A stretch of DNA of 64,000 bases from Melioribacteraceae bacterium (GCA_023230485.1 JALNXG010000007.1:813-64812); one strand, 5' to 3'; counted from the stretch's first letter, positions 32,803-50,283 are shown. A program made the numbers and translations. The notes: a model not told the origin generated them from the sequence alone.

Positions 32803-33294
32803 ATGGCTAGTCCATTAGTTGGTATTATCATGGGAAGTGATTCTGATTTTAACGTAATGAAAAATGCCGGTGAGGTATGTAAGCAATTTGGTATCTCTTA
32901 CGAAATAAGAATTATCTCAGCTCATCGCACTCCTATTCAAGTAAAGGAATATGCTGATTCAGCTTATAAAAGAGGAATTAGAGTTATTATTGCCGGAGCC
33001 GGTGGTGCAGCTCATCTTCCCGGATTAACAGCTTCTCATACTGCTTTGCCCGTTATTGGTGTCCCTGTAAAAAGTAAATCGTTTGATGGTATGGATTCGC
33101 TTCTTTCAATTGTTCAAATGCCGTCAGGCGTTCCCGTTGCAACTGTCGCAATCGATAATGCTAAGAATGCAGGACTTCTTGCTATACAGATTCTCGCAGT
33201 TTCCGATGAAATATTATATCAAAAATTTATTGATTTTAAGAAAGAGATGGAGATAGAATCGATGGCGAAAAATGATAAATTAGGTTTAGTCTAA
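32803..33294 (+). CDS. purE: N5-CAIR mutase
   Basis: 163 aa with GSDSD and GGAAHLPG motifs. Confidence 0.95.
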
Positions 33295-34305
33295 AATCTT
33301 ATAAACCGGTTCTCCAATTAATTTCTTTGCATCCCATACAAAGTCGATTGATTTTTCTTCAGTTCGATAAACACAATTTTCGACATTGCAATATTTACAG
33401 ACTTCCGGTTTGCAATAATCCATATGAATCCTTACACTGAAATTAGGGAATAACTTCTTAAATTCAACTTCTATAAATTCTTCTTCCAAATGAGATTGCT
33501 TAATTGAAAAGAAGTAGGGAAGTATTAGATGAAAATCTAAAAACAAAGTATCGGCAGATTTCCAAAATCTAAGATGATGTATATCCATCCAATAATCTTT
33601 TTTGATTCGATTAAGAGTATCTAAAATGATTTTTAATGTCTCAGGATCGGTTTCATTCATTATTCCGCCAATAGATTCCCTTATTAATTTATATCCGGTA
33701 TAAAGAATATTAAGGGCTACAATAATAGCGAAAATAGGATCTATTATTTGATAACCCGTAAATAATACCACGACTAGACCAATCACAACCCCTATACTCG
33801 TAAAAGAATCAGTTAAAACATGCTTCCCATCGGCAGTAAGAATCAATGATTTAGTCTTTTTCCCTTTAGCAATTAAATAATATCCTAAGAATAGATTTAT
33901 AATACCTGCACCGGCAATTATATAAGCACCGATATCGATCTTTTCGATCTTAATGCCATTTATTAAACTTAATGTAGAAGAATAGATAATAGTTATGGCA
34001 GCGGTAAGAATTAAAAACCCTTCCACTCCGGCTGAAAGATATTCAATTTTACCATGACCATATAGATGCGATTCATCGGCAGGTTGTGCACTTAAATAAA
34101 TACTATAAAGTGCCATAGAAGTTGCTACTACATGAACAACTGATTCGGCAGCATCTGAAAATATTGCATTAGAACCAGTAATAAGATATGCTGTCATTTT
34201 AAAGACAAACATTCCAATACCTACAAATAGGGATATATAGGCAGCTTTTTTCTTTTCCGGTAAATTTTCTTGTACGAGTTTCATTTTTCTAAATCCTTCA
34301 TTCAA
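33286..34305 (-). CDS. Cation diffusion facilitator (CDF) family metal efflux transporter
   Basis: 339 aa with six TM segments. Contains DAAESVVHV and HVLTDSFTS metal-site contexts and a Cys-rich tail ([14 protein letters not shown]). The 3' end overlaps purE by 9 nt (convergent). Confidence 0.85.
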
Positions 34306-34432
34306 ACATAAGGAAAGATTAGCAAATAGTATAATCGTTTCTCACTATTAGGAATATTTAGTATTAAATAACAAAAAAGGACAAAGAAGTTGCAAAAAGC
34401 TTTAAAAACAGAGCAAAAACAAATTAAGACAT

Positions 34433-34448
34433 TGGCATACAATATGAT
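34433..34448 (+). promoter_or_regulatory. Weak sigma-54-like -24/-12 candidate upstream of the hydrogenase unit
   Basis: TGGCAT-ACAAT-ATGA against consensus TGGCAC-N5-TTGC. The -24 GG is intact and the -12 element is poor. It lies about 40 nt upstream of the hydC1 ATG. A similar TTGGCATA box lies upstream of kdp. Confidence 0.2.
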
Positions 34449-34486
34449 TATATATGACAGGAAATCAAATTAAATGAGAGAAAAAG

Positions 34487-34978
34487 ATGCACAATCATAT
34501 TTTTGAAAATTACGCTCCCGGAGAGAGAAGCAGTTTAATCGCTCTTTTGCAGGACGTCCAAGAAATTTATGGCTATTTACCTGAAGAAGCATTAAGAGAC
34601 ATTTCAGATTTTATAAAAGTACCTTTAAGCGGTATTTACGGAGTAGCAACTTTCTATAATCAATTCCGCTTGAAACCTTTAGGAAAAAATGTTATTAGAG
34701 TTTGCAGAGGAACTGCATGCCATGTAAAAAATTCTGCGAATATTCTTATGGCTTTAGAGTTGGAATTAGGTGTTAAAGCCGGAGATACTACCAGAGATAA
34801 ACTTTTTACTTTAGAAACAGTGGCATGTATCGGAGCTTGTAGTATTGCACCCGTAGTTAATATCAATCAAGAATATTTCGGAAGAGTTACGGTTAAAGAA
34901 ATTCCTAAAATTCTTAAAAAATATCGTCAAGAAGAAGCATTGAAATCGAAGTCAGAACAATCCGTGAGTGTAGAATGA
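34487..34978 (+). CDS. hydC: NuoE-like [2Fe-2S] subunit of HydABC-type hydrogenase (set 1)
   Basis: 163 aa with the thioredoxin-like [2Fe-2S] motifs CRGTACH and CIGACSIAP. Confidence 0.88.
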   Translation: MHNHIFENYAPGERSSLIALLQDVQEIYGYLPEEALRDISDFIKVPLSGIYGVATFYNQFRLKPLGKNVIRVCRGTACHVKNSANILMALELELGVKAGDTTRDKLFTLETVACIGACSIAPVVNINQEYFGRVTVKEIPKILKKYRQEEALKSKSEQSVSVE

Positions 34979-36960
34979 AAAATTTTATAGAAACCTGCTG
35001 TAATGAATGTTGGCATTCTAATGAAAATCCATGCGAACAGTTTGTGCTTTGCTGCACAGAGGGTCCACTTTGTCATCAGAATCCTGAATGTAAAGAGAAA
35101 TTTCAAAATCTAAATAAAGAACTACTTTATCAAAAACATGATATCCCTGTTATTTTTATCGGCATGGGAACTTGCGGACTTGCATCTGGTGCAGAAAAAG
35201 TTAAAGAAGCAATCGAAGCTGAACTTACAAAATTAAATATAGAAGCTCGAATAGTCCCAACCGGTTGTATCGGTTTTTGTGCTAGAGAAGTGATTGTTGA
35301 TATAAAAATTCCAAATGAAAAAAGAATTGCTTATTGTGAAGTTACACCAAAAGATGTTCCTGAGCTTATCAAAACAGCTATACTTGAAAAGAAAATTCTT
35401 GATAGAAAATTCCTTGGTATTCATGGAGAAGGAGATGTAGGTCATATTTGTATTGATCAAGTCCCGTTTTTCAAACGTCAGCATAAAATTGTTTTAGAAA
35501 AATGCGGTATTATTAATCCTGATTCTATTGATGAATATATTGCAAATGGCGGATTCAAAGCATTAGATAAAGCACTCAGAATAATGACGCCCGAAACTGT
35601 TGTAAAAGAAGTAAAAGATAGTGGACTTAGAGGTAGAGGGGGTGGAGGTTTCCCTACCGGTATGAAATGGGAAATTGCTCTTAAACAAAAAAATAATAAA
35701 AAATATATTATATGTAATGCAGATGAAGGTGATCCCGGTGCATTTATGGATCGTTCAGTTTTAGAGAGCGACCCTTATAAAATGGTCGAAGGTATTATGA
35801 TTGCCGCTTATGCAATTGGTGCTTCTTCGGGTTATGTTTACTGCCGTGCTGAATATCCGTTAGCCATCAAAAGAATATTGAATGCAATAGCTAAATGTAA
35901 AGAATATGGTCTTCTTGGTAATAATATTCTTGGAACAGATTTTTCATTCGAGCTAAAGATAAAAAAAGGTGCTGGTGCATTTGTATGCGGTGAAGAAACT
36001 GCATTAATTGCATCAATCGAAGGCAAGAGAGGAATGCCTAAACCACGTCCTCCTTACCCATCAATTTCAGGTTTATTTAATAAACCAACTGTTATCAATA
36101 ATGTTGAAACATTTGCAAATGTTACATCGATTATTAATAGGGGTGCCGGTTGGTTAAATTCAATCGGTACTAAAGCTAGCAAGGGCACTAAAGTATTCGC
36201 ACTTAGCGGTAACGTTAAATATAGCGGCTTAGTTGAAGTGCCAATGGGCGTTACCTTGCGGGAGGTAGTATTCGATATCGCCGGTGGAATTCCTGATGGA
36301 AAGAATTTCAAGGCAGTTCAAATTGGCGGTCCTTCGGGTGGATGTTTACCTGAATCTGTTATGGACACTGAAATTGATTATGAATCTTTGAAAAGCGTTG
36401 GTGCTATGATGGGGTCTGGCGGATTCGTAATCATGGATGAAGATACTTGTATGGTTGATGTAGCTAAATATTTCTTGAATTTTATTAAAGATGAATCATG
36501 CGGTAAATGCGTCCCATGTAGAGAAGGAACTAAACGTTTATTAGAAATTATTGAAAGAATCCCTACTGCATATTCTGAAAAAACTAATAAACTTGAACAG
36601 CTTCAAAGATTCAAAGGCATTATGCACATGCAAAGATTGGCTGATGTAATTAAAGACACTTCTCTTTGTGGTCTAGGACAGACTGCCCCGAATCCAATTC
36701 TCTCCGGTCTAAGATATTTCAGAGATGAATATGAAGAACATTTATATGAAAGACATTGTAAAGCCGGCGTTTGTAAAGAACTTTTAACCTATACAATTGA
36801 TAATGATATCTGTTCCGGATGTGGACTTTGCGCTAAGAAATGTTCTGTCGAAGCAATTGTAGGCGATAAAAAGATGCCTCATTATATTGTTCAAGAAAAA
36901 TGTATCAAATGCGGAATGTGTGTAGAAACTTGCCGATTTGAAGCTATTACAGTTAATTAA
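34975..36960 (+). CDS. hydB: NuoF-like FMN/NAD(P)H-binding Fe-S subunit (set 1, long form)
   Basis: 661 aa. In order: a Cys-rich leader, a [2Fe-2S] thioredoxin-like domain (GTCGLASG...GCIGFC), GRGGGGFPTGMKW, CNADEGDPGAF, ESCGKCVPCR, and two C-terminal CxxCxxCxxxC motifs. Confidence 0.9.
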   Translation: MKNFIETCCNECWHSNENPCEQFVLCCTEGPLCHQNPECKEKFQNLNKELLYQKHDIPVIFIGMGTCGLASGAEKVKEAIEAELTKLNIEARIVPTGCIGFCAREVIVDIKIPNEKRIAYCEVTPKDVPELIKTAILEKKILDRKFLGIHGEGDVGHICIDQVPFFKRQHKIVLEKCGIINPDSIDEYIANGGFKALDKALRIMTPETVVKEVKDSGLRGRGGGGFPTGMKWEIALKQKNNKKYIICNADEGDPGAFMDRSVLESDPYKMVEGIMIAAYAIGASSGYVYCRAEYPLAIKRILNAIAKCKEYGLLGNNILGTDFSFELKIKKGAGAFVCGEETALIASIEGKRGMPKPRPPYPSISGLFNKPTVINNVETFANVTSIINRGAGWLNSIGTKASKGTKVFALSGNVKYSGLVEVPMGVTLREVVFDIAGGIPDGKNFKAVQIGGPSGGCLPESVMDTEIDYESLKSVGAMMGSGGFVIMDEDTCMVDVAKYFLNFIKDESCGKCVPCREGTKRLLEIIERIPTAYSEKTNKLEQLQRFKGIMHMQRLADVIKDTSLCGLGQTAPNPILSGLRYFRDEYEEHLYERHCKAGVCKELLTYTIDNDICSGCGLCAKKCSVEAIVGDKKMPHYIVQEKCIKCGMCVETCRFEAITVN

Positions 36961-36982
36961 TTTGAAACCGGAGATAGAAAAA

Positions 36983-38713
36983 ATGTTAGAATTAACGATA
37001 AATAATATAAAAGTAAAAGCTGAAGAGGGGATGACGATTTTAGATGCAGCAAAATCAGTCGGTATTAATATTCCCACTTTATGCCATATGAAAGATTTGT
37101 TCCCAACCGGTGCATGTAGAATTTGCGTTGTAGAAGTCGATGGAATGCGCGGTTTAACTCCATCTTGTGCTTATCCGGTTATGGAAGGTATGAAAGTTCA
37201 AACAAATACTCCAAGAGTTAGAATTGCAAGAAAAACTATTGTAGAATTATTAATTGAAAACCATCCACAGGATTGTTTGGTTTGTGTCAGAAATAAAAAT
37301 TGCGAATTACAAGATTTGTCTGAGACCTATAACGTAAGAGAACATAGATACTGCGGCGAGAAAAAAGAACACGCAATTGATATTTCAAGTGCTTCTATGG
37401 AAAGAGATCCTGCTAAATGTATCCTTTGTGGTAGATGTGTTAGAATGTGCGGAGAAATTCAGAAAATCGGTGCTATTGATTTTACAAATAGAGGTTTTTA
37501 TAGCACCGTTACTACTCCATACAATATCGGATTAAACGTAAGTGATTGTATTCTTTGCGGTCAATGCATCCTTGTATGCCCTACTGCTGCTCTTAGAGAG
37601 AAAAGTAGTTCAAAAGAAGTAATGAATGCAATAACGGATAAAAAGAAATTTACCGTTGTTCAAGTAGCTCCTGCTGTTAGAGCATCTATCGGTGAAGAAT
37701 ATAATTTACCTCTTGGAACAAATGCAACCGGACAATTAGTAACAGGATTGAAACGACTTGGATTTGATAAAGTATTCGATACTAACTTTGCAGCCGATCT
37801 TACGATTATGGAAGAAGCATCCGAATTAATTAATAGAGTGAGCAATGGCGGAACATTACCAATGTTTACAAGTTGCTGCCCGGGCTGGGTTAAATATATC
37901 GAACAAAACAGTCCTGAATTACTCCCTCACGTTTCTACGTGTAAATCTCCTCATGAAATGGAAGGCGCAGTTCTAAAAACATACTATGCAAAAAAAATGG
38001 GATTGAAACCGGAAGAAATTTATGTAGTTTCTATAATGCCATGTACAGTTAAGAAATTCGAATCGGGGAGAGCAGAACTTTCTGAAGATAAATTACAGGA
38101 TGTAGATGCAGTTCTTACAACAAGAGAATTAGTACGATTATTCAAAGCTGCTGGAATTGATTTTAATGATCTACCGGAAGATAAATTTGATAATCCGCTT
38201 GGTGATTCTACAGGTGCTGCTGCAATATTCGGTACTTCAGGCGGTGTAATGGAAGCAGCTCTTAGAACTGCTTATTTCAAACTTACAGGAACCGAATTAG
38301 ATAATTTAGCTCTAGAAGATATGCGAGGCAATGATGGATTAAAAGCATCTACTATCGATATAAATGGTCTAGAAGTTAGAGTAGCTGTTGTTAATGGTAT
38401 TGGAAATGTCGGACCGGTTTTAGAAGAGATAAAGAATGGTACTTCTAGATATCATTTTGTAGAAGTTATGGCATGCCCCGGCGGTTGTATTAATGGCGGC
38501 GGGCAACCAATTCATCAAAAACCGGAAAAAGTGAAAAAACGTATTCAAGCTCTATATGAGATTGATTCGAAAATGAAAAATAGACGTTCGCATGAAAATG
38601 AGTCAGTTCAAAAACTATATAAAGAATTTTTAATAGAACCAAATAGTCATGTAGCTCATGAAGTACTACATACTACTTATGTAGATAGAAAAAAGATTCT
38701 AAGTAAAAAATGA
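36983..38713 (+). CDS. hydA: [FeFe]-hydrogenase catalytic subunit (M3-type, set 1)
   Basis: Canonical H-cluster motifs FTSCCPGW, MPCTVKKFE and EVMACPGGCINGGGQP. N-terminal [2Fe-2S], HPQDCLVC and 2x[4Fe-4S] domains. I chose the start at 36983 (GGAGA RBS); the ORF track starts at 36938. Confidence 0.93.
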   Translation: MLELTINNIKVKAEEGMTILDAAKSVGINIPTLCHMKDLFPTGACRICVVEVDGMRGLTPSCAYPVMEGMKVQTNTPRVRIARKTIVELLIENHPQDCLVCVRNKNCELQDLSETYNVREHRYCGEKKEHAIDISSASMERDPAKCILCGRCVRMCGEIQKIGAIDFTNRGFYSTVTTPYNIGLNVSDCILCGQCILVCPTAALREKSSSKEVMNAITDKKKFTVVQVAPAVRASIGEEYNLPLGTNATGQLVTGLKRLGFDKVFDTNFAADLTIMEEASELINRVSNGGTLPMFTSCCPGWVKYIEQNSPELLPHVSTCKSPHEMEGAVLKTYYAKKMGLKPEEIYVVSIMPCTVKKFESGRAELSEDKLQDVDAVLTTRELVRLFKAAGIDFNDLPEDKFDNPLGDSTGAAAIFGTSGGVMEAALRTAYFKLTGTELDNLALEDMRGNDGLKASTIDINGLEVRVAVVNGIGNVGPVLEEIKNGTSRYHFVEVMACPGGCINGGGQPIHQKPEKVKKRIQALYEIDSKMKNRRSHENESVQKLYKEFLIEPNSHVAHEVLHTTYVDRKKILSKK

Positions 38714-40686
38714 CAGGTATTGTAACCACGATACGACAACGATGCAGAAGATGTTATTCCTGCGTCAGAGAATGTCCTGCACAAGCCATTAAGGTAATTA
38801 ATGGTCAAGCAGTGGTAATCGAAGAACGCTGTATCGTGTGTGGGCATTGTGTTACTGTATGTTCACAAAATGCTAAACAAGTAGTAAATGATAAAGAATT
38901 AGTATTGAAACAGATATTGTCAAGCGGAAAGGCAGTAGCTATAATCGCTCCTTCCTTTCCTGTTTCTTTCCCTGATCACCACGAAAAGTTGGTTGGTGGA
39001 TTAAAAGAAATTGGATTTTCTCATGTTTGTGAAACTTCCTTTGGCGCGGATTTAGTTAGTCAGCTTTATCCAAAGTTTATTGAAGCAAACAAAGATAAAA
39101 CAATTATTAGTTCGCCTTGTCCGGCAGTTACAAATTGGATTGAGAAATATTATGTAGATCTCATACCTAATATAGCGACAATTGTATCTCCTATGATTGC
39201 AATGGGGAGATACTTAAAACAAAAATTAGGTGAAAATTATAGTGTTGTCTTTATTGGACCCTGTATTGCTAAGAAGAGTGAATATAAAGATGAAGAAGTG
39301 GCAGGTGATATTGATGCAGTACTGACGTTTGTAGAATTGCATGAGATATTCGAAGAATTAAGAATCGACTTAAATAAGTGTGATGAGATACCATTTGATC
39401 CTCCTTTTGCCAATATGGGTAAAACATATCCATTAACAGGCGGTTTACTTAAATCTTCTGAACTTTCAAATGATATCCTTCAGAATGATATTCTAGTAGT
39501 TGAAGGAAAAAAGAATGTAAAAAAAGTTATTCAGGAAATTAGCAACCAAAAAGTAAAAGCAAAATTTGTCGATATATTGTTTTGTGAAGGTTGCATAAAT
39601 GGACCTGCGGCAGGAAGTGATCTAGATAACTATTCACGCAAAATTAAAGTTGTTGATTACATAAACGAACACATTAATAATGTTGATAAAGCGGTTTGGA
39701 AAAGTGAGATATATAATAGCAGAGATTTGGATCTAACTAGAAGCTTTGATAATAAAAATCAAAGAAGACCTATGCCTTCCGAAGAAGAGATTAAAAAAAT
39801 TCTTGCTCAAACTGAAAAATATTTAGTTACAGATGAACTTAATTGTGGTTCTTGCGGATATCCCACTTGCAGAGAATATGCTATTGCAATTGCTAAAGGA
39901 TTAGCCGAAGAAGATATGTGTCTTCCTTATTTAATTGAAAAACTGGAAGACGCTAATAGAGAATTAAAAGAAACACAAGCACAATTACATAGTGCTGAAA
40001 AGTTAGCTTCTATTGGTCAGCTCGCAGCAGGTGTTGCTCATGAAATAAATAATCCGCTCGGTACAATTATGCTTTATGCTTCTATGATGAAACGTAAAAT
40101 GGAAAAAACTAATTGTTCTGAACAAAATAGCGAAGACCTTCAGTTAATAGTTGAAGAAGCAACTCGTTGTAAGAATATTGTAGCTAATTTATTGAACTTC
40201 GCTCGTCAAGGTAAAATAAAATTATCTACAATTAAATTAAATGATTTGATAACTAATATCGTCTCTGCTATTAAGATTAATCCAGAAAATTCTGATATAA
40301 TTATTAATCTTCACGATAATACAGAAGGTGCTATTATCGAAGGGGATTCAGATCAACTTAAACAAGTATTTCTTAATGTGCTTAATAATTCAGTTGAAGC
40401 TTTAGACGCAAGCTCAATAAAAAATATCACAATAAATATCGATCAAAATGAAGAAAGTATTATAACAAATATTATTGATACAGGTGTAGGTATTCCAGAA
40501 GAGAATATAAATAAACTTTTTACACCCTTCTTCACTACTAAAAAAATGGGTAAAGGTACTGGTTTAGGCTTAGCAATTACTTATGGAATTGTTAAAATGC
40601 ATAAGGGTGATATAACTGTAAAAACGATTTTAGGTAAAGGAAGTGATTTTAAAATCAAATTGCCAAAAATATTAATTAAAAAATAA
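38710..40686 (+). CDS. HydS-like putative sensory [FeFe]-hydrogenase domain fused to a histidine kinase
   Basis: 658 aa. The ATG overlaps the hydA1 stop (ATGA). Two CxxCxxCxxxC motifs sit at the N-terminus. The H-domain is degenerate but Cys-complete (SSPCPAV C137, GPCIAKKSE C185, FCEGC C292/C295). An extra motif C379-x2-C382-x4-C387-x16-C404 follows. The kinase part has the HisKA H-box AHEINNPL (His444) and HATPase_c boxes (DTGVGIP, GTGLGLAI). Confidence 0.85.
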   Translation: MTGIVTTIRQRCRRCYSCVRECPAQAIKVINGQAVVIEERCIVCGHCVTVCSQNAKQVVNDKELVLKQILSSGKAVAIIAPSFPVSFPDHHEKLVGGLKEIGFSHVCETSFGADLVSQLYPKFIEANKDKTIISSPCPAVTNWIEKYYVDLIPNIATIVSPMIAMGRYLKQKLGENYSVVFIGPCIAKKSEYKDEEVAGDIDAVLTFVELHEIFEELRIDLNKCDEIPFDPPFANMGKTYPLTGGLLKSSELSNDILQNDILVVEGKKNVKKVIQEISNQKVKAKFVDILFCEGCINGPAAGSDLDNYSRKIKVVDYINEHINNVDKAVWKSEIYNSRDLDLTRSFDNKNQRRPMPSEEEIKKILAQTEKYLVTDELNCGSCGYPTCREYAIAIAKGLAEEDMCLPYLIEKLEDANRELKETQAQLHSAEKLASIGQLAAGVAHEINNPLGTIMLYASMMKRKMEKTNCSEQNSEDLQLIVEEATRCKNIVANLLNFARQGKIKLSTIKLNDLITNIVSAIKINPENSDIIINLHDNTEGAIIEGDSDQLKQVFLNVLNNSVEALDASSIKNITINIDQNEESIITNIIDTGVGIPEENINKLFTPFFTTKKMGKGTGLGLAITYGIVKMHKGDITVKTILGKGSDFKIKLPKILIKK

Positions 40687-40707
40687 ATTGAATTTGGAGA
40701 AAAAATA

Positions 40708-41115
40708 ATGGATTTATTGGTAAAAAAAATATTACTTGTGGATGATGATATCGATTTATTAGAACAAAATAAGTTAATCCTTGAGAATAAAGGATTTCAG
40801 GTAGTTACTGGTGAATCTGGGTCTGAAGGATGGAGTTTATTTCAGAAAGAAAAACCTGATGCCTGTATTGTCGATTTAATTATGGAGCAGATGGATTCAG
40901 GCTTTGTATTAACTCACCGAATTAAGAAAACTGAACATGGGAAAAATATTCCTGTTTTTATTCTTACTTCTGCCACATACGAAACAGGATTTAAATTCAG
41001 TGCTTCTACAAGCGAAGAAAGAGAATGGATTAAATGTGATGGTATTCTTCATAAACCTGTCGTAGTTGAAGAATTGATCACTAAATTGGAAAATTTTAAC
41101 CCAAAGACGAATTAA
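40708..41115 (+). CDS. Single-domain response regulator (receiver only)
   Basis: 135 aa. Acidic pocket DDD, phospho-acceptor context IVDLIM, then LTS and HKP. No output domain. Confidence 0.85.
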   Translation: MDLLVKKILLVDDDIDLLEQNKLILENKGFQVVTGESGSEGWSLFQKEKPDACIVDLIMEQMDSGFVLTHRIKKTEHGKNIPVFILTSATYETGFKFSASTSEEREWIKCDGILHKPVVVEELITKLENFNPKTN

Positions 41116-41119
41116 TAAA

Positions 41120-42601
41120 TTGAATGAAACAAAAGGAAAAATTTTAGTTGTCGATGATGAAAAAGGATTAAGGATTGGAACGCAAAGATTATTAGAAGAT
41201 GAGAATTTTACAGTAGATACTGCGGAAAATGGTGAACAGGGAATTAGTCTTGGTGTTGCTTCCGATTACGACTTAGCAATAATCGACCTTAAAATGCCGG
41301 ATGTAGATGGACTTGAAGTGCTTAAGCAAATCAAGTCCGTACATCCAAACACAATCTGTTTTATAGCTACTGCTTATGCAAGCTATGAAACGGCAATAGA
41401 ATCCACTCGCCTTGGCGCATATGGCTATATACCAAAACCTTTCACTCCCGATGAATTAATTTATCAAGTTGAACAAGGATTTAGACAACGGCAATTAGTT
41501 GTTGAATCTGAACTTCTTAAAAAAGAACGCGATGAAAATCTTATCGAAATTGCTTCAGAAAAATCACGACTAAATACAATAATTAAAGCAATTAGCGATG
41601 GCGTCCTAGTAATTAATAGAATAGGTGAGTTAGTTTATTTTAATACAGCCGCCTTAAAATATTTTGATCTCGATTCACTTTCAATAGGAGATTCTGCTCT
41701 TATACATTTACCCGCTCCTATTGTAGAGATTATTAAAAAGATTTATAGCCCCGATCAAGCACTTCAAAAAACATATAGCATACAATTAGAATTAAAATCC
41801 AATAATGAATTATTTGTTGAATCTACATGCACTCCAATACTTCAAAATGACAAATCGATTGCAGGAGTTGTAGTAGTAATCAAAAATATCACTGAATTTA
41901 AAAAGATCGAGTTAATTAAATCTCAATTCGTTTCTATGGTAGCTCACGAACTAAAAACCCCTATGGCTGCAGTTCAAGGATTCTTGAATATTATCCTAGA
42001 TGATTCTATTAGCATTCCTTATGATACTCAACGCGATTATTTAGTAAGGTCAGTTATTCGCCTAAAAAGTTTGACTGATCTAGTAAATGACCTTTTAGAT
42101 ATCTCAAGAATGGAATTAAAGACAAAGCAGAGAGAAATAACGGAAATTAAGCTCGATGAGATAGTCCAATCAGTTTCACAAATGCTAGAATTAGAACTCA
42201 AGAAAAAAGGTGTTACATTAATTACTCATTATGAAGAACCAATTCCAACTATTAAAGCGGATGCTAATGAAATCAACAGAATATTTACCAATCTCATTAG
42301 CAATGCAATAAAGTATAATAAAGACAAAGGGAAAATTGATATCAGTATTTCCCATTCCGGCAGCTACGCAGTGATACAGATTAGCGATAGCGGAATAGGG
42401 ATGAAAACGGAAGAAAAAAATAGATTATTCCAGGAATTTTACAGAGCAAAAAATGAAAAGACCCGCGGCATCAGCGGTACCGGTCTCGGTCTTTCTATCG
42501 TAAAAAAAATAGTTGAATCTTATTATGGAAAAATAGAAGTCGAATCTGAATATGGTTCGGGTACGACATTTATAATCCATTTTCCAATAAATACTAACTA
42601 A
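41120..42601 (+). CDS. Hybrid sensor kinase: receiver-PAS-HisKA-HATPase_c
   Basis: 493 aa, TTG start. Receiver (VVDDE...IIDLKMPDVDG...PKP), a PAS-like middle region, H-box VAHELKTPMAAV and GTGLGLSIVKK. Confidence 0.85.
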   Translation: MNETKGKILVVDDEKGLRIGTQRLLEDENFTVDTAENGEQGISLGVASDYDLAIIDLKMPDVDGLEVLKQIKSVHPNTICFIATAYASYETAIESTRLGAYGYIPKPFTPDELIYQVEQGFRQRQLVVESELLKKERDENLIEIASEKSRLNTIIKAISDGVLVINRIGELVYFNTAALKYFDLDSLSIGDSALIHLPAPIVEIIKKIYSPDQALQKTYSIQLELKSNNELFVESTCTPILQNDKSIAGVVVVIKNITEFKKIELIKSQFVSMVAHELKTPMAAVQGFLNIILDDSISIPYDTQRDYLVRSVIRLKSLTDLVNDLLDISRMELKTKQREITEIKLDEIVQSVSQMLELELKKKGVTLITHYEEPIPTIKADANEINRIFTNLISNAIKYNKDKGKIDISISHSGSYAVIQISDSGIGMKTEEKNRLFQEFYRAKNEKTRGISGTGLGLSIVKKIVESYYGKIEVESEYGSGTTFIIHFPINTN

Positions 42602-42616
42602 AAAGGGGAAATAACT

Positions 42617-42988
42617 ATGGCTCTTATCGCTATTATCGATGATGATCCGGATATTCTCGATGCAAGCTCTTTGGTACTAAAATCTAAAGGATTTGATGTC
42701 GTTACAGCAACTAACCCGGTCGATGGTTACGACATCGTAACAAAAAGGAATCCAAATCTGATTATACTAGATGTAATGATGGATGAACCTGATGACGGCT
42801 TTTTCTTGGCACAGAAATTCAGGAAAAACGGAATCACTACACCAATTTTAATGTACACTTCAGTATCGAAAGCCATTGGTTTAGAATTTGGCAAAAGTGA
42901 TATGGTACCTGTCGATGATTTTGTCGAAAAACCAATCTCACCTGAAGAATTAGTCAAAAAAGTTGAAAGTTTATTGCAGAAAAAATAG
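42617..42988 (+). CDS. Single-domain response regulator (receiver only)
   Basis: 123 aa with IIDDDPD, ILDVMM, YTS and EKP. No output domain. Paralogous in layout to the regulator at 40708. Confidence 0.85.
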   Translation: MALIAIIDDDPDILDASSLVLKSKGFDVVTATNPVDGYDIVTKRNPNLIILDVMMDEPDDGFFLAQKFRKNGITTPILMYTSVSKAIGLEFGKSDMVPVDDFVEKPISPEELVKKVESLLQKK

Positions 42989-42999
42989 GAGGAAATTAA

Positions 43000-43473
43000 A
43001 TGCTTATTCTCGAAAAAAATGCAATGACTGAAGAAATTGAAAAGCTTGTAGAGAAATACGGACCTGAAAGGTCGTCTTTACTTCCAATTCTTCAAGACAT
43101 TCAACGAGATCACAAATCAATACCCGATTTTGCTCAACAAGAAGTAGCTCGTTTGTTAGATATTCATCCTGTTGAAGTTTTTAGTGTCATTTCATTTTAC
43201 GCATTTCTTAATACCGAAGCTAAAGGTAAATTCATCGTTCGTCTTTGTCGGACAATTACTTGCGATATTAAAGGTAAAGAAAGAATTGCACAAGCAATTG
43301 AACGTGAACTCGGTATTACTTTTGGTGAAACAACGAAAGATAATAAATACACATTAGAATATGCTAACTGCCTTGGAATGTGTGATCAAGGACCGGCTAT
43401 GTTAATTAATGATATCGTTTATGCAAATCTAACACCCGAAAAAGCAGTCAAAATTCTTAAGGGGGTTAAATGA
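43000..43473 (+). CDS. hydC: NuoE-like [2Fe-2S] subunit (set 2)
   Basis: 157 aa with CRTITCD and CLGMCDQGPA. Confidence 0.85.
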   Translation: MLILEKNAMTEEIEKLVEKYGPERSSLLPILQDIQRDHKSIPDFAQQEVARLLDIHPVEVFSVISFYAFLNTEAKGKFIVRLCRTITCDIKGKERIAQAIERELGITFGETTKDNKYTLEYANCLGMCDQGPAMLINDIVYANLTPEKAVKILKGVK

Positions 43474-44672
43474 TTATGGAAAAGACAAAAAGAGAAGGTT
43501 CAGTAATATTCTCTGAATATAAAAGAGGCGAAGGAATAAAAGCCGCTTTGGGTAAAAAGCGTGAAGATATTCTTTTAGAACTTCGTGAATCTAAAATTAA
43601 AGGTAGAGGCGGCGCAGGATTCCCAACTGCTACGAAATGGATGGTTGTAGCGGCTTCTACTGCTGAAATCAAATATGTTATATGTAACGCCGATGAAGGG
43701 GAACCTGGTACATTCAAAGACCGTGTGCTTTTAGTCGATTATCCTGAATTAGTTTTTGACGGTATGGTGATTGCGGGATATACAATCGGTGCTTCAAGGG
43801 GTATCGTTTATCTTCGTGGTGAATATGAATATGTAAGAAAACCATTAGAAGATTATTTAGAATCAATGAGAAAAGATAATTTGCTCGGGAATAACATTCT
43901 CGGTAAAGATGGATTCGATTTTGATATAACTATAAGAATGGGCTCTGGCGCATATATATGCGGCGAAGAAACCGCTTTAATTGAATCATTAGAAGGTAAT
44001 AGAGGAGAAGCTCGTAATAAGCCTCCTTACCCTGTAAATACAGGATTTTTTGGACGACCTACTGTTGTAAATAATGTTGAAACTTTAGCTGCTGTTTCTC
44101 ATATTTTAGTTAAAGGTGGCGATTGGTTTAGACAACATGGTACGGATAAATCTACCGGCTCTAAATTATTTTCTATTTCCGGCGATTGCGAAAAACCGGG
44201 TGTTTATGAATTACCTTGGGGCACTAAACTTTCGGAAATTCTTTTCCTTGTAGGTGCTAAAAATACTAAAGCAATTCAGGTTGGCGGTGCTTCCGGAATA
44301 TGTCTTAATAAAACTCAGTTCGATAGAACTTTAGCTTATGAAGATGCGGCAACAGGCGGCTCGATTATGATTTTTAATGAATCGAGAAATATGATTCACA
44401 TTCTTAAAAATTTCATGGAGTTTTTTGTTGAAGAATCTTGTGGTCAATGTACACCTTGTAGAATCGGTAATGTCAAATTACTCGAGGGTGTGAAAATGAT
44501 TCAATCAGGTGAATATACTTTCGATTATATCGAAAAGTTAATCGATCTTGGTAGAACAATGCAAGTAGCGTCTAAATGCGGTTTAGGTCAATCTTCTCCA
44601 AATCCGTTTATCTCGATTTTAGAAAACTTTAAAGATGAAATATTCAATGGAAACGGAGGATATAATGGATAG
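43470..44672 (+). CDS. hydB: NuoF-like FMN/NAD(P)H-binding subunit (set 2, short form)
   Basis: 400 aa with GRGGAGFPTATKW, CNADEGEPGTF and ESCGQCTPCR. It lacks the N-terminal [2Fe-2S] domain and the C-terminal ferredoxin domains present in set 1. Confidence 0.85.
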   Translation: MIMEKTKREGSVIFSEYKRGEGIKAALGKKREDILLELRESKIKGRGGAGFPTATKWMVVAASTAEIKYVICNADEGEPGTFKDRVLLVDYPELVFDGMVIAGYTIGASRGIVYLRGEYEYVRKPLEDYLESMRKDNLLGNNILGKDGFDFDITIRMGSGAYICGEETALIESLEGNRGEARNKPPYPVNTGFFGRPTVVNNVETLAAVSHILVKGGDWFRQHGTDKSTGSKLFSISGDCEKPGVYELPWGTKLSEILFLVGAKNTKAIQVGGASGICLNKTQFDRTLAYEDAATGGSIMIFNESRNMIHILKNFMEFFVEESCGQCTPCRIGNVKLLEGVKMIQSGEYTFDYIEKLIDLGRTMQVASKCGLGQSSPNPFISILENFKDEIFNGNGGYNG

Positions 44673-46584
44673 TAGAAAAGATTATAGAGCACCATTAAGT
44701 CAACAGCCACTGACAATCGAAAAGCCAACTGACCTTACTGCGATTGGCGGGACTATCACCGTTGAAATTAATGAAAAGAAAGTTGTTGTTCCATTAGGGA
44801 CTACAATTTTAGATGCATGTAAAATGGCAGGAATTAGTATCCCTACTTTATGCCATCATGAAGACCTTTGCATTGCAGGTGTTTGTCGTATATGCGTTGT
44901 TGAAGTCGAAGGAATGAGAACTCTACAAGCTTCTTGTGCCTTTCCAATTACAGCACCAATAAAAATAAAAACTTCTACACCTATGGTACGTAAAGCAAGA
45001 AGACATATTATTGACTTAATGCTAAGTGAACACTATGGCGAATGTTATTCTTGCGTCAGAAATGGTAACTGCGAATTACAGAATTTAGCTAAAGAGTATG
45101 GAGTAGATGGTTATACTTTTGGACATGTTGATAAACCACGCTATGAAATTGATCGCTCTTCTTATGCTGTTATTAGAGATATGAGTAAATGTATCTTATG
45201 TAAAAGATGTGTTAGAACTTGTATCGATCTTCAAGAAGTCGGTGTACTTGAATCAATAGGAAGGGGAGACATGACTCATATTTCCACTTTCTTAGAGAAA
45301 CCACTTTCAGACGTAATCTGTATTAATTGCGGTCAGTGTATTAATAGATGTCCCACTGCCGCTCTTAGAGCAAATGATCCATCTGATGAAATCTGGAGAG
45401 CAATTGACGATCCGAAAAAACACGTAGTAATTCAAACTGCACCATCACCTAGAGCTGCGATATGCGAAGAATTTGGAATGGAAGCAGGTACTTCTTTAAC
45501 TCAAGAGCTTAATACTGCATTAAAAAGAATTGGCTTCGATAAAGTATTTGATACCAATTTTACTGCAGATTTAACAATTATCGAAGAAGGCACTGAATTA
45601 ATAATTCGACTATACAAAGCATTAGTTGGTAAAGATGCTTCCGTTAGTCTTCCACAATTCACCTCATGCTCACCTGGATGGGTAAAATACTTAGAACATT
45701 ATTATCCTGAATATCTCGATAATCTAAGTAGTGCTAAATCACCTCAACAAATGTTCGGTTCACTTATTAAAACTTTTTATGCACAAAAGAATGGCGTTAA
45801 TCCTGAAGATATTGTTTCTGTTGCATTAATGCCTTGCTCAGCTAAAAAGTTTGAATGTAACCGTCCTGAAATGGCTGATTCTGGTTATAAAGACGTTGAC
45901 TATGGTCTTACAACACGCGAAATGGCAAAGATGATTAAGGAAGCAGGTATTAATCTCCCTGAAATGCCGAAATCACATTTCGATGATCCATTTGGTGAAG
46001 CTTCAGGTGCTGGATTAATTTTCGGAGCTACCGGCGGTGTTATGGAAGCTGCTATTAGAACAATAGTTGAGTTTATTACAGGTGCTAAAGCAGAAGATAT
46101 TTTTGCAAATGCAAACGTTGTTGATGTACGTGGATTTGATGGTATAAAATATATGGAAATTCCTCTTGGTGATAAATTTGGTCCTGTACCCGGTTTAATT
46201 GCTCATCTTGTTCCTAATTGGGATTGGCTCAAAGGTGCTACTCTTAAAGTTGCTGTAGCACACGGTACTGCGAATGCCAAAAAAGTAATGGATGATATTA
46301 AGGCAGGCGGTAAGTTTAGCGAGTGCCATTTTATAGAATTTATGGCATGCCCAGGCGGATGTCTTGGAGGTGGTGGTCAACCGATCCCAACAACTCCTGA
46401 AATTCGTATGAAACGCGCTCAAGCTATATATGCCGAAGATGAATCGCTTGAATTAAGAAAATCTCATGAGAATCCTCACATTACTAAGATTTATGAAGAG
46501 TTCTTAACCGAAGGTCCTTGTAGTCATTTATCGCACAAATTATTACATACACACTACGTAAAACGCGGTAAATATATTATTTAA
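44665..46584 (+). CDS. hydA: [FeFe]-hydrogenase catalytic-type subunit (set 2) with a variant L1 motif
   Basis: H-cluster motifs FTSCSPGW (variant), MPCSAKKFE and EFMACPGGCLGGGGQP. Same N-terminal Fe-S domain set as HydA1. I chose the start at 44665 (GGAGGA RBS); the ORF track starts at 44635. Confidence 0.9.
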   Translation: MDSRKDYRAPLSQQPLTIEKPTDLTAIGGTITVEINEKKVVVPLGTTILDACKMAGISIPTLCHHEDLCIAGVCRICVVEVEGMRTLQASCAFPITAPIKIKTSTPMVRKARRHIIDLMLSEHYGECYSCVRNGNCELQNLAKEYGVDGYTFGHVDKPRYEIDRSSYAVIRDMSKCILCKRCVRTCIDLQEVGVLESIGRGDMTHISTFLEKPLSDVICINCGQCINRCPTAALRANDPSDEIWRAIDDPKKHVVIQTAPSPRAAICEEFGMEAGTSLTQELNTALKRIGFDKVFDTNFTADLTIIEEGTELIIRLYKALVGKDASVSLPQFTSCSPGWVKYLEHYYPEYLDNLSSAKSPQQMFGSLIKTFYAQKNGVNPEDIVSVALMPCSAKKFECNRPEMADSGYKDVDYGLTTREMAKMIKEAGINLPEMPKSHFDDPFGEASGAGLIFGATGGVMEAAIRTIVEFITGAKAEDIFANANVVDVRGFDGIKYMEIPLGDKFGPVPGLIAHLVPNWDWLKGATLKVAVAHGTANAKKVMDDIKAGGKFSECHFIEFMACPGGCLGGGGQPIPTTPEIRMKRAQAIYAEDESLELRKSHENPHITKIYEEFLTEGPCSHLSHKLLHTHYVKRGKYII

Positions 46585-46594
46585 TTCATTTAGG

Positions 46595-46630
46595 GTCTTA
46601 GCAGTCAATTGGCTGCTAAGATTTATTTTA
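46595..46630 (+). terminator. Rho-independent terminator after hydA2
   Basis: Stem (T)CTTAGCAG at 46596-46604, loop TCAATTGG, CTGCTAAG(A) at 46613-46621, followed by TTTATTTTA. Confidence 0.7.
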
Positions 46631-47994: not shown

Positions 47995-48046
47995 TTAAAT
48001 CTCTTTCTATATTTAAATAAGATTACCACAATAATCGGAATACGTT

Positions 48047-49438: not shown

Positions 49439-50283
49439 TAATCATTTAGATCATATATTCTGCGCATGTATGAATGATTTAATTTATTAGATGCTCGTAA
49501 TGCACTTTCTCTTGAATCAAAAAAACCATAAACAGTAGAACCACTGCCCGACATCATCGAAAATAATGACCCGTTTTTTACCATAATATTTTTAATATTT
49601 TTAATTTCGGGATATTTCCCAAATACAAAATCTTCAAAATCATTTGTCGTTTCATTTTGTAATTTCGAGAAATTAAATCTCTCTCCTTCAATCATATTTT
49701 TATAATCCCAATTACTATCAGATGGATTAACATTTCGGAATGCTTCAGCAGTTGAAATATGTATATGTGGGTTTACAATTAATAGAAAACAATCTATATT
49801 AACTTCAACTTGATTTAATAACTCTCCACGTGATTCACCTATACTTGGTTTTGCTTTTAGAAAAAAAGGAACATCAGAACCTAATTCTAATGCCATCTCA
49901 ATTAATTCGTTATATGCAATATGCAATGAATAAAGTTCGTTCAATGAAATCAGGGTTGCAGCAGCATCGGAACTTCCGCCGCCAAGACCTGCACCCATAG
50001 GGATATTTTTTTGTAATGTAATTCCGGTCTTTAGATTATTTGAGATTTTATTTTCTACTAATTTTTTTGCTTTTATTATCAGATTACTTTCGTCATCTTT
50101 TATTAATGGCTCGTTTGATATAAAATAATCAGCATTATTTTTCTTAAATGACATAATATCGGATAGTCCATAAATAGGATAGAAGAAAGTGTATAAATTA
50201 TGATATCCATCATCTCTTTTGGAAACTACTTTTAAACCAATATTTATTTTTGCCGGAGCTTTTATCTCAATATATTCTTTCAT
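49435..50283 (-). CDS. ispE: 4-diphosphocytidyl-2-C-methyl-D-erythritol kinase
   Basis: 282 aa. KINIGLKV N-terminus and GHMP kinase motif PMGAGLGGGSSDAA. Confidence 0.9.
   Translation of the reverse strand: MKEYIEIKAPAKINIGLKVVSKRDDGYHNLYTFFYPIYGLSDIMSFKKNNADYFISNEPLIKDDESNLIIKAKKLVENKISNNLKTGITLQKNIPMGAGLGGGSSDAAATLISLNELYSLHIAYNELIEMALELGSDVPFFLKAKPSIGESRGELLNQVEVNIDCFLLIVNPHIHISTAEAFRNVNPSDSNWDYKNMIEGERFNFSKLQNETTNDFEDFVFGKYPEIKNIKNIMVKNGSLFSMMSGSGSTVYGFFDSRESALRASNKLNHSYMRRIYDLNDY

What the first reader, a model, noticed from the sequence alone, without database searches (positions are those of the whole stretch)
38710..40686. One-polypeptide putative H2 sensor kinase: HydS-like [FeFe]-hydrogenase domain fused directly to HisKA/HATPase_c
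Seen, N-terminal and H-domain:
- Residues 1-51 carry two CxxCxxCxxxC ferredoxin motifs.
- The H-domain keeps all four H-cluster Cys positions: C137, C185, C292 and C295.
- Its catalytic signatures are degenerate. TSCCPxW becomes SSPCPAV, so the proton-relay Cys position is Pro.
- MPCxxKxxE is kept as GPCIAKKSE.
- The L3 motif becomes FCEGCINGPAAG, without GQP.

Seen, C-terminal part:
- An extra motif follows: C379-x2-C382-x4-C387-x16-C404 (nt 39844-39921).
- After it come a short coiled coil and a complete kinase core, with H-box His444 at 40039-40041 and G boxes.
- The ATG overlaps the hydA1 stop.

Established:
- Loss of the proton-relay Cys plus an additional four-Cys motif with this spacing are features reported for group C (HydS-type) putative sensory hydrogenases.
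- To my recollection, the characterised Thermotoga maritima HydS ends in a PAS domain, not a kinase.
- Kinase-linked group C members have been predicted bioinformatically. As far as I know, none has been characterised biochemically.

Inference: this protein transduces H2 or H-cluster redox state directly into autophosphorylation.
Basis: partly seen in the sequence, partly recalled or inferred. Interest (0 to 1): 0.85.

Follow-up and report, generated by a model that had tools for sequence, protein, structure and literature searches.

The report
Hydrogenase-like sensor fused to histidine kinase
This gene encodes one protein in which a non-catalytic, HydS-type [FeFe]-hydrogenase module is joined directly to a histidine kinase. 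It probably lets the cell report hydrogen or redox state to the two hydrogenase operons that flank it. The architecture is widespread and already catalogued, but nobody has tested it biochemically.

Summary
ORF 38710-40686 (658 aa) has this order of parts:
- two ferredoxin-type 4Fe-4S motifs
- an [FeFe]-hydrogenase H-domain
- a Cx2Cx4Cx16C cluster motif
- one long helix
- a HisKA/HATPase_c kinase core

All four H-cluster cysteines align with those of canonical HydA. The proton pathway is missing, as in the characterised sensory enzymes TmHydS and TamHydS.

It is not unique. About 30% of the 150 closest 50%-identity representatives of the sensor module carry a kinase. Full-length fusions occur in at least nine phyla. 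They almost always sit in the order hydCBA / fusion / single receiver / receiver-kinase, often followed by hydEFG. HydDB and a 2024 paper already list kinase-bearing group C enzymes.

New here:
- The spacer from the last cluster cysteine to the phospho-accepting His varies in steps of seven residues (33/40/47/54/68).
- The kinase- and sigma54-fused forms have a Cx2C L3 loop, not Cx3C.
- The receiver of the second kinase is NtrC/AtoC-like, matching the AtoS/ZraS-like kinase core of the fusion.
- The Melioribacter roseus orthologue was detected only in fermenting cells.

Verdict: a real, well-described new member of a known but uncharacterised kind. H2 sensing is plausible and unproven.

The parts
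38710..40686 (+). hydS-HK: a single 658-aa polypeptide combining a HydS-type [FeFe]-hydrogenase sensor module with a histidine kinase
   Evidence: The exact protein is in NCBI as MCK9279641.1, 'ATP-binding protein [Melioribacteraceae bacterium]'.
38743..38862 (+). Two CxxCxxCxxxC ferredoxin-type [4Fe-4S] motifs (C12-C22 and C41-C51)
   Evidence: The eight Cys are at least 90% conserved in 150 representatives.
38929..39606 (+). H-domain (residues 74-299). L1 is SSPCPAV (39109-39129), L2 is GPCIAKKSE (39256-39282), and L3 is DILFCEGCINGP (39571-39606).
   Evidence: Pfam Fe_hyd_lg_C, E=3e-57. Supported by alignment A1, column statistics and Foldseek matches to [FeFe]-hydrogenases.
39844..39921 (+). 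C-terminal Cx2Cx4Cx16C cluster motif (C379, C382, C387, C404)
   Evidence: PF04060, E=6e-11. Kept in 141-145 of 150 representatives. PMC8163306 describes it as a shared feature of groups C and D.
39922..40110 (+). One continuous predicted helix (residues 405-467). It starts right after C404 and carries the phospho-acceptor His444 (40039-40041).
   Evidence: AlphaFold2 model with pLDDT 95.5. Spacer lengths from C404 to His fall on a heptad series.
40015..40668 (+). Kinase core: HisKA (residues 436-500) and HATPase_c (residues 545-653), with H, N, G1, F and G2 boxes
   Evidence: Best NCBIfam similarity is to AtoS and ZraS. The structural match to ZraS 9jfj has a target-normalised TM-score of 0.80.
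34487..38713 (+). hydC1-hydB1-hydA1: a trimeric NADH-dependent, bifurcating-type [FeFe]-hydrogenase. The hydA1 stop overlaps the hydS-HK start.
   Evidence: HydA1 scores 870 bits on NF040763, above the cut-off of 765.
40708..41115 (+). RR1: a single-domain response regulator (135 aa). A single-domain RR lies immediately downstream in 28 of 35 fusion loci.
41120..42601 (+). HK2: a receiver-PAS-HisKA-HATPase_c hybrid (493 aa). An orthologue lies downstream in 33 of 35 fusion loci. Its receiver is NtrC/AtoC-like.
42617..42988 (+). RR3: a single-domain response regulator (123 aa) with an OmpR-family-like receiver. It is specific to the Ignavibacteria form of the cluster.
43000..46584 (+). hydC2-hydB2-hydA2: a second [FeFe]-hydrogenase, with a short HydB and the L1 motif TSCSPGW
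46593..46624 (+). Terminator-like hairpin with a 14-bp stem after hydA2. It is the probable end of the 10-gene unit.

Best explanation
**Proposed identity.** The protein is a cytoplasmic sensor histidine kinase. Its input domain is a group C (HydS-type) [FeFe]-hydrogenase module.

**Inferred mechanism, step by step.**
1. The module binds two N-terminal [4Fe-4S] clusters, an H-cluster and a C-terminal [4Fe-4S] cluster.
2. Because the proton-transfer pathway is absent, the H-cluster reacts with H2 slowly. It reports the H2 or redox level rather than turning substrate over.
3. The state of the H-domain passes through the C-terminal cluster fold into one rigid coiled-coil helix. That helix begins at the last cluster cysteine and contains His444. 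This sets the balance between kinase and phosphatase activity.
4. Phosphate then goes to the NtrC/AtoC-like receiver of the conserved downstream receiver-kinase HK2, and possibly to the single-domain receiver RR1. This forms a two-tier relay that tunes the flanking hydrogenase genes, and in other phyla also hydEFG.

**Shown:**
- the architecture and the conservation of ligand and pocket residues
- the heptad-locked spacer
- conserved gene order across phyla
- expression of the orthologue only in fermenting cells

**Inferred:**
- cofactor content
- responsiveness to H2
- the direction of regulation
- the phosphotransfer route and the final output
For: **Domains and motifs.**

**Ligands and pocket.**
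- The ligand Cys align with those of canonical HydA.
- They are kept in 148-150 of 150 representatives.
- Residues that contact [2Fe]H are also kept: P231 in 140, S232 in 130, K358 in 134 and E361 in 146 of 150.

**Match to characterised sensory enzymes.**
- C299 is Pro. In the 150 representatives this position is A 44, P 27, S 24, T 19 and C 17. PMC10055695 gives about 10% Pro.
- M353 is Gly and F417 is Tyr, as in TmHydS G177 and Y223.
- TmHydS still takes up [2Fe]H and reacts with H2 (PMC10055695).
- The stretch that aligns with the HydA segment carrying the proton-pathway glutamates E279 and E282 is deleted, and S319 is Ala.

**Modularity.** The same sensor module is found in front of other transmitter domains: HisKA/HATPase_c in 44 of 150, sigma54 AAA+ with HTH in 16, PAS in many, GGDEF in 2 and MCP in 2. 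It therefore behaves as a portable input domain.

**Structure.**
- AlphaFold2 gives pLDDT 95.5 with a single helix over residues 405-467.
- The C404-to-His spacer is 40 aa in all 120 close relatives.
- In distant representatives it is mostly 33, 40, 47, 54 or 68 aa. In 27 of 34 the length falls in the same heptad register.

**Synteny in 35 fusion loci from at least nine phyla.**
- hydA immediately upstream in 26
- single-domain RR downstream in 28
- HK2 orthologue downstream in 33
- hydE, hydF or hydG downstream in 17

**Family typing of the relay.** The fusion's kinase core is AtoS/ZraS-like. The HK2 receiver is NtrC/AtoC-like both in this window and in Kuenenia.

**Expression.** M. roseus MROS_2483 lies between MROS_2482 (HydA) and MROS_2484 (RR). 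It carries the same annotation as AFN75713.1, which belongs to the same 90%-identity cluster as P0104. It was detected with 16 peptides in fermenting cells only, together with MROS_2480-2489.
Against: - No experiment exists on any kinase-fused member.
- The L3 loop is C-x2-C in this subfamily. It is C-x3-C in group A and in 58 of 65 PAS-type relatives. Whether such a loop holds a normal H-cluster is unknown.
- In TamHydS the C-terminal cluster is not reduced under 1 atm H2 (PMC13104023). A simple electron-relay signal through that cluster is therefore unlikely.
- No hydEFG genes lie in this window.
- No DNA-binding regulator lies in the conserved module, so a link to transcription is not shown.
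- The receiver assignment rests only on similarity to families whose kinases and regulators pair.
Confidence: 0.6

Rival explanations
1. Redox sensor without H2 chemistry. In this reading the H-domain has lost, or never receives, the [2Fe] subcluster. The four [4Fe-4S] sites then report the redox state of the ferredoxin or NADH pool, or of the neighbouring HydABC complex, to the kinase.
For: - The L3 loop is shortened to C-x2-C, which is the spacing typical of plain ferredoxin cubane motifs.
- The proton pathway is absent.
- The start codon overlaps the hydA1 stop, so the two proteins are probably made together.
- PMC11406978 reports that H-cluster motifs were hard to find in some group C1 proteins.
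Against: - Residues that serve only the [2Fe] subsite are under strong conservation: K358, S232, P231 and the bridging Cys503 equivalent.
- TmHydS and TamHydS carry the same substitutions at positions 299, 353 and 497, yet bind [2Fe]H and react with H2.
- hydEFG lies directly downstream in 17 of 35 loci. HydA also needs these maturases, so this point is weak.
Confidence: 0.2
2. Oxygen or CO damage sensor. In this reading the fragile H-cluster or FeS clusters act as a fuse. When the facultative aerobe meets O2, cluster loss switches the kinase and shuts the hydrogenase operons.
For: - Melioribacter is facultatively aerobic, and the whole cluster is detected only in fermenting cells.
- TamHydS reacts quickly with O2 to give a defined stable state (PMC8163306).
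Against: - The same module occurs in MAGs assigned to lineages usually regarded as strict anaerobes, such as Desulfobacteraceae, Syntrophorhabdaceae, Elusimicrobiota and Kuenenia. That they are strict anaerobes is my own knowledge.
- Nothing in the sequence is specific to O2 sensing.
Confidence: 0.1
3. Regulatory subunit of the hydrogenase complex. In this reading the protein docks on HydABC (the 'T' subunit idea), and the kinase with its single-domain receivers modulates enzyme activity after translation rather than gene expression.
For: - Translational coupling to hydA1.
- hydA lies immediately upstream in 26 of 35 loci.
- PMC11406978 names the group C3 protein the T subunit of BfuABC subtypes.
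- All receivers in the cluster lack DNA-binding domains.
Against: - Solved HydABC complexes (8a6t, 7p5h, 7q4v) appear under HydA names only. That they lack such a subunit is my own knowledge and was not checked here.
- In 16 of 150 representatives the sensor module is fused directly to sigma54 activators with HTH domains, which points to transcriptional output.
Confidence: 0.1

Closest known systems
Thermotoga maritima HydS (TmHydS), [FeFe]-hydrogenase group C / M2f
   Same: - Two N-terminal [4Fe-4S] motifs, an H-domain with all four ligand Cys, and the C-terminal Cx2Cx4Cx16C motif.
- No proton-relay Cys.
- M353 replaced by Gly and F417 by Tyr.
- Encoded next to a group A hydrogenase.
   Different: - TmHydS ends in a PAS domain. 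Here a HisKA/HATPase_c kinase follows the cluster motif directly through one helix.
- Position 299 is Pro here and Ala in TmHydS.
- Position 497 is Leu here and Ser in TmHydS.
- The L3 loop is C-x2-C here. Most PAS-type relatives have C-x3-C. The TmHydS sequence itself could not be checked.
Kinase-bearing group C [FeFe]-hydrogenases noted in Hydrogenedentota (the 'BfuT' subunit; HydDB reference WP_006928132.1), and HydDB class C1 'histidine kinase-linked'
   Same: A sensory-type H-domain protein that carries or adjoins a histidine kinase and is encoded with a group A3 hydrogenase. This is the same kind of protein.
   Different: - Those reports are catalogue-level only.
- I could not run HydDB, so whether this protein falls in C1 or C3 is unknown.
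- The heptad-locked spacer, the C-x2-C loop and the conserved RR/REC-HK partners are not in the passages I read.
Thermoanaerobacter mathranii HydS (TamHydS), group D / M2e
   Same: The same three-part FeS and H-domain layout with the C-terminal cluster, loss of the proton pathway, M497 replaced by Leu, and a position beside a bifurcating hydrogenase.
   Different: - Group D has Ser or Thr at position 353 and no fused output domain.
- Here position 353 is Gly and a kinase is fused.
[NiFe] regulatory hydrogenase with the HoxJ/HupT kinase (group 2b; Cupriavidus and Rhodobacter)
   Same: It works in a comparable way. A crippled hydrogenase senses H2 and controls a histidine kinase of a two-component system that governs hydrogenase expression (HydDB table). 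That the target is an NtrC-family regulator is my own knowledge.
   Different: - The metal site and protein family are unrelated.
- Sensor and kinase are separate proteins that form a complex. Here they are one chain.
AtoS / ZraS / NtrB-type cytoplasmic kinase cores
   Same: The H, N, G1, F and G2 boxes are present. The kinase core scores 199 bits against the AtoS model and 171 bits against the ZraS model. The fold matches ZraS 9jfj.
   Different: Both scores are far below the equivalog cut-offs of 646 and 479 bits. The input domain is entirely different.

Membership tests
[FeFe]-hydrogenase group C (putative sensory, HydS type) | H-domain with the four H-cluster cysteines (CpI 300, 355, 499, 503) | tested here: met
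   C137, C185, C292 and C295 align with the ligands of canonical HydA. They are kept in 148-150 of 150 representatives. Pfam Fe_hyd_lg_C gives E=3e-57.
[FeFe]-hydrogenase group C (putative sensory, HydS type) | [quoted passage not shown] | tested here: met
   C12/15/18/22 and C41/44/47/51.
[FeFe]-hydrogenase group C (putative sensory, HydS type) | C-terminal Cx2Cx4Cx16C cluster motif after the H-domain | tested here: met
   C379/382/387/404. PF04060 gives E=6e-11. The motif is defined in PMC8163306.
[FeFe]-hydrogenase group C (putative sensory, HydS type) | Loss of the proton-relay Cys299 and of the group A proton pathway | tested here: met
   Position 299 is P136. The segment carrying E279 and E282 is deleted. 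S319 is Ala.
[FeFe]-hydrogenase group C (putative sensory, HydS type) | Small residue (mostly Gly) at M353, as opposed to Ser/Thr in group D | tested here: met
   G183. Gly occurs in 143 of 150 representatives. The criterion comes from PMC8163306 and PMC10055695.
[FeFe]-hydrogenase group C (putative sensory, HydS type) | PAS domain after the C-terminal cluster (the M2f definition, as in TmHydS) | tested here: not met
   No PAS hit was found. A helix leads straight into HisKA.
[FeFe]-hydrogenase group C (putative sensory, HydS type) | L3 motif with C-x3-C spacing (ExMxCxxGCxxG) | tested here: not met
   The motif is FCEGC, which is C-x2-C. This holds for all 120 close relatives and for 30 of 30 direct kinase fusions with a recognisable L3.
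[FeFe]-hydrogenase group C (putative sensory, HydS type) | HydDB subgroup assignment (C1, C2 or C3) | not testable with these tools
[FeFe]-hydrogenase group C (putative sensory, HydS type) | Binds [2Fe]H and reacts with H2 at low turnover | not testable with these tools
   This needs maturation followed by FTIR, EPR and activity assays.
HisKA-class sensor histidine kinase | DHp domain with a phospho-acceptor His, and a CA domain with N, G1, F and G2 boxes | tested here: met
   H444, N556/N560, D590-G592-G594, F604/F607 and G616-G620 are invariant or nearly invariant in A5. Both Pfam domains score above their gathering thresholds. The fold matches ZraS.
HisKA-class sensor histidine kinase | Autophosphorylation and transfer to a cognate receiver | not testable with these tools
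   Only genomic association with RR1 and HK2 is available.
[FeFe]-hydrogenase group D (M2e, TamHydS type) | Ser/Thr at M353 and no fused output domain | tested here: not met
   Position 353 is Gly, and a kinase is fused.
Catalytic group A [FeFe]-hydrogenase | Intact TSCCPxW, MPCxxKxxE and ExMACxxGCxxGGGQP motifs, plus the small-subunit domain | tested here: not met
   The motifs here are SSPCPAV, GPC.. and FCEGCINGPAAG, and there is no Fe_hyd_SSU domain. NCBIfam group A scores 118 bits against a cut-off of 406.

The most novel reading that the evidence does not exclude
The kinase-fused form is not just HydS with a different tail. It may be the sensor of a distinct signalling system conserved across phyla. 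That system has three defining traits:
- a shortened C-x2-C H-cluster loop
- a coiled-coil spacer kept in heptad register between the C-terminal cluster and the phospho-accepting His
- an obligate three-protein relay: HydS-HK, a single receiver, and a receiver-kinase with an NtrC-like receiver

This relay is wired to hydABC and hydEFG in at least nine phyla, including anammox Planctomycetota. If it responds to H2, it would be the [FeFe] counterpart of the [NiFe] HoxBC-HoxJ sensor. It would also be the first sensory [FeFe]-hydrogenase whose output, autophosphorylation, can be read directly in a test tube.
Probability: 0.45. Interest if true: 0.7.

Novelty: new member of a known kind. Interest (0 to 1): 0.5.

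Why it matters
How sensory [FeFe]-hydrogenases pass on their signal is an open question. The two characterised enzymes are TmHydS, which ends in a PAS domain, and TamHydS, which has no output domain. Neither has a known partner or a measurable output. The latest study explicitly asks for interaction partners and a structure (PMC13104023).

A form in which sensor and kinase are one chain gives a direct assay: 32P-autophosphorylation with and without H2. Its candidate acceptors are encoded next door. The culturable relative Melioribacter roseus expresses the orthologue during fermentation, so genetics is also possible.

The heptad-locked helix predicts a mechanical route for the signal, not an electron-transfer route. 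That route can be tested by inserting or deleting residues.

Tried and rejected
- **Promoters.** I scanned the window for sigma54 promoter consensus. It gave 21 matches against 17.9 expected, and none was convincing upstream of hydC1. The sigma70-type scan of the hyd cluster region (33000-50000) was below shuffle expectation. No promoter claim is made.
- **Maturases.** I searched the window for hydE, hydF and hydG using the Kuenenia sequences and found none.
- **Pocket geometry.** Model coordinates are not exposed, so I could not measure the geometry of the four Cys or of the C-x2-C loop.
- **Reference sequences.** I tried to obtain the TmHydS and TamHydS L3 sequences from paper text and supplements. 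They are not held.
- **HydA2 motif.** I first thought its TSCSPGW motif (Ser at the cubane-ligand position) might be a striking anomaly. I rejected this for three reasons. The same motif is in the solved HydA1 chain of PDB 7q4v. It is in about half of the HydA proteins next to fusions. It was already discussed for Ignavibacterium album and T. tengcongensis (PMC3362086; also PMC3787301).
- **Group D membership.** Rejected because position 353 is Gly and an output domain is fused.
- **Catalytic hydrogenase.** Rejected because the proton pathway and the small-subunit domain are absent.

Full report
**1.
- The ORF at 38710-40686 (+) encodes 658 aa.
- Pfam finds, in order: Fer4-type motifs (residues 9-55), Fe_hyd_lg_C (74-299, E=3e-57), the PF04060 'FeS' motif (377-406, E=6e-11), HisKA (436-500) and HATPase_c (545-653).
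These are the two CxxCxxCxxxC motifs, SSPCPAV, GPCIAKKSE, FCEGCINGPAAG, C379-x2-C382-x4-C387-x16-C404 and H444, all at the stated nucleotide positions.
- The ATG overlaps the hydA1 TGA stop as ATGA.
- The identical protein is in NCBI as MCK9279641.1 from a Melioribacteraceae MAG.

**2. The H-cluster pocket.**
- Alignment with the two canonical HydA proteins in the same window puts C137, C185, C292 and C295 on the ligand columns. The CpI register (C299, C300, W303) was read from the PDB alignment.
- I searched with the sensor part (residues 1-410) against 1.84 billion representatives. This gave 5465 relatives, 1046 of them below 1e-30.
- In the best 150, the four ligands are kept in 148-150 sequences.
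- Residues that contact the [2Fe] subsite are also kept: P231 in 140, S232 in 130, K358 in 134 and E361 in 146.
- The substitutions follow the clade pattern. Position 299 is A 44, P 27, S 24, T 19 and C 17. M353 is Gly in 143. Q325 is Met in 130. M497 is Leu in 103.
- The segment that aligns with the HydA stretch carrying E279 and E282 is deleted, and S319 is Ala.
- These are the features reported for the characterised sensory enzymes. TmHydS has A131, G177, Y223 and S267 at CpI positions 299, 353, 417 and 497. It still incorporates [2Fe]H and reacts with H2 (PMC10055695). Gly rather than Ser/Thr at position 353 points to group C rather than group D (PMC8163306).

**3.
- The two L3 cysteines are C-x2-C (FCEGC).
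- This holds for all 120 close relatives. Among sequences with a recognisable L3, it holds for 30 of 30 direct kinase fusions, 9 of 9 PAS-kinase forms and 13 of 14 sigma54 fusions.
- By contrast, 58 of 65 PAS-only relatives (the TmHydS architecture) have C-x3-C, as do both group A HydA proteins of this window and the group A motif quoted in the literature.
- I could not establish whether any characterised enzyme has the short loop.
- This is the main caveat on the claim that the pocket is intact.

**4. The kinase and the connection.**
- The H, N, G1, F and G2 boxes are invariant or nearly so in an alignment of 32 fusions.
- The core is most like AtoS and ZraS.
- An AlphaFold2 model built on 150 sequences has pLDDT 95.5 and pTM 0.80. 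It shows one unbroken helix from residue 405, the residue after the last cluster Cys, to residue 467, with His444 on it.
- Foldseek matches the N-terminal part to [FeFe]-hydrogenases (target-normalised TM-score up to 0.69). It matches the C-terminal part to the ZraS cytoplasmic domain (0.80). No group C or D entry appeared among the listed matches.
- The spacer from C404 to the His is 40 residues in all 120 close relatives. In 34 distant fusions it is 33 (3 sequences), 40 (4), 47 (15), 54 (4) or 68 (1). That is 27 of 34 in a single heptad register.
- A register kept through several independent indels is the signature of a rigid signalling helix.
- In TamHydS the C-terminal cluster is not reduced by H2 (PMC13104023).
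- Taken together, these points favour a conformational route for the signal over an electron-relay route.

**5. It is a common, portable sensor module.**
- Among the 150 representatives, 44 carry HisKA/HATPase_c, and about 32 of these have it directly after the cluster motif.
- A further 16 carry a sigma54 AAA+ domain, 13 of them with HTH_8. Many carry PAS alone, 2 carry GGDEF and 2 carry MCP signalling domains.
- A scan of one genome per species found 580 confirmed relatives.
- Among the best 80 loci, 35 are full-length fusions. They come from Ignavibacteriota/Bacteroidota, Planctomycetota (including Ca. Kuenenia), Verrucomicrobiota, Myxococcota, Desulfobacterota, Elusimicrobiota, Spirochaetota, Bdellovibrionota and Marinimicrobia.

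**6. Context.**
- In the window the gene sits in a tightly packed 10-gene run. The order is hydC1-hydB1-hydA1, hydS-HK, RR1, REC-PAS-HK2, RR3, then hydC2-hydB2-hydA2.
- All gaps are 21 nt or less, and a 14-bp hairpin follows hydA2.
- The same order is found in Melioribacter sp. Ez-97 and in other Ignavibacteria.
- Across the 35 fusion loci, hydA is immediately upstream in 26. A single-domain receiver is downstream in 28. An orthologue of HK2 is downstream in 33. hydE, hydF or hydG follow within 8 kb in 17.
- HK2 begins with a receiver whose best matches are NtrC and AtoC, both here and in Kuenenia.
- The HK2 kinase core resembles PnpS, PhoR and WalK. The RR3 receiver resembles RpaB, MtrA and YycF.
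- AtoS-AtoC and ZraS-ZraR are cognate pairs (my own knowledge). The most economical route is therefore HydS-HK to the HK2 receiver, with HK2 then signalling onward. This is inference by family typing only.
- No DNA-binding regulator is part of the conserved module.

**7. Expression evidence from a cultured relative.**
- M. roseus AFN75713.1/WP_014857143.1 is 660 aa and is mis-annotated 'sigma-54 dependent transcription regulator'. It belongs to the same 90% cluster as P0104, which is 62% identical to this protein.
- In the proteome tables of PMC5492636, MROS_2483 carries that same annotation and lies between HydA (MROS_2482) and a response regulator (MROS_2484). It was seen with 16 peptides in all three fermentative replicates and in no aerobic replicate.
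- MROS_2480-2482, 2485-2488 and 2489 show the same pattern.

**8. What is already known.**
- HydDB defines group C1 as 'histidine kinase-linked (putative)' (PMC5037454).
- A 2024 study of Hydrogenedentota reports a group C3 type with a histidine kinase domain encoded with BfuABC. It cites a HydDB reference with the same domain (PMC11406978).
- Reviews and biochemical papers treat only PAS-type or output-less enzymes.
- Five full-text searches found no biochemical work on a kinase-fused form.
- This protein is therefore a new member of a known, uncharacterised kind.

**9. Verdict.**
- The functional claim is plausible. I put it at about 0.6, but it is untested.
- The claimed rarity is not borne out.
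- The value of the locus is as an experimental handle on an open question. The heptad-locked helix, the short L3 loop and the conserved two-kinase relay are concrete predictions that can be tested.

Noticed in passing
window 44635-46584 (hydA2): The L1 motif is TSCSPGW. The cubane-ligand position (CpI C300) is Ser, while the proton-relay Cys is kept. There is also an insertion of about 40 aa before L3. The same motif is in the solved HydA1 chain of PDB 7q4v and in about half of the HydA proteins next to fusions. It was already discussed for I. album and T. tengcongensis, so it is an ordinary known variant.
   Followed up: yes
window 43470-44672 (hydB2) versus 34975-36960 (hydB1): HydB2 is 400 aa and has only the NuoF core. 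HydB1 is 661 aa, with a CCxxC N-terminal prefix and two C-terminal Fer4 motifs. The sensor therefore sits between a bifurcating-type enzyme and one that may use NADH only. The same dichotomy was described for I. album (PMC3362086).
   Followed up: partly
P0124, P0138, P0143 and other representatives: The same Fer4 / H-domain / FeS sensor module is fused directly to sigma54 AAA+ with HTH_8 (16 of 150), to GGDEF (2) and to MCP signalling domains (2). These would be one-component H2- or redox-responsive regulators. I found no description of the sigma54 form in the papers I read.
   Followed up: partly
L028 8681-13766 (Ca. Kuenenia); also L008, L011, L016, L017, L027, L031: Outside Ignavibacteria, the H-cluster maturase genes hydE, hydG and hydF follow the receiver-kinase directly. 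In Kuenenia an aspartase-like gene is also present. This makes one hydCBA / sensor / relay / hydEGF cluster.
   Followed up: yes
L020 6258-7979 and L041 6244-7965 (Bacteroidales MAGs): The HydA-like gene next to the fusion has a degenerate pocket: ISACPAW, TPCMAMKFE with Met at the K358 position, and no APxVR motif. A second HydS-like gene of 568-630 aa lies divergently upstream in L020, L030, L041 and L045.
   Followed up: no
window 46609-47994 and 48047-49438: Two paralogous membrane histidine kinases (461 and 463 aa) follow the cluster. The TTG start listed for the first lies inside the terminator-like hairpin at 46593-46624, so the true start is probably later. A kinase is kept at this position in Ignavibacteria loci. 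The M. roseus counterpart, MROS_2489, was also detected in fermenting cells only.
   Followed up: partly
window 54398-55165 and 55219-55734, upstream of kdpA (56101): A receiver with a truncated sigma54-interaction domain (255 aa) is followed by a separate 171-aa ORF. This looks like a split or frameshifted NtrC-type regulator next to the kdp genes.
   Followed up: no
window 26969-30916 (-): A 1315-aa protein with an N-terminal TPR region and three AAA+/AAA_lid modules. It is conserved at the same place upstream of the hyd cluster in Melioribacter sp. Ez-97 (L001 786-4658).
   Followed up: no
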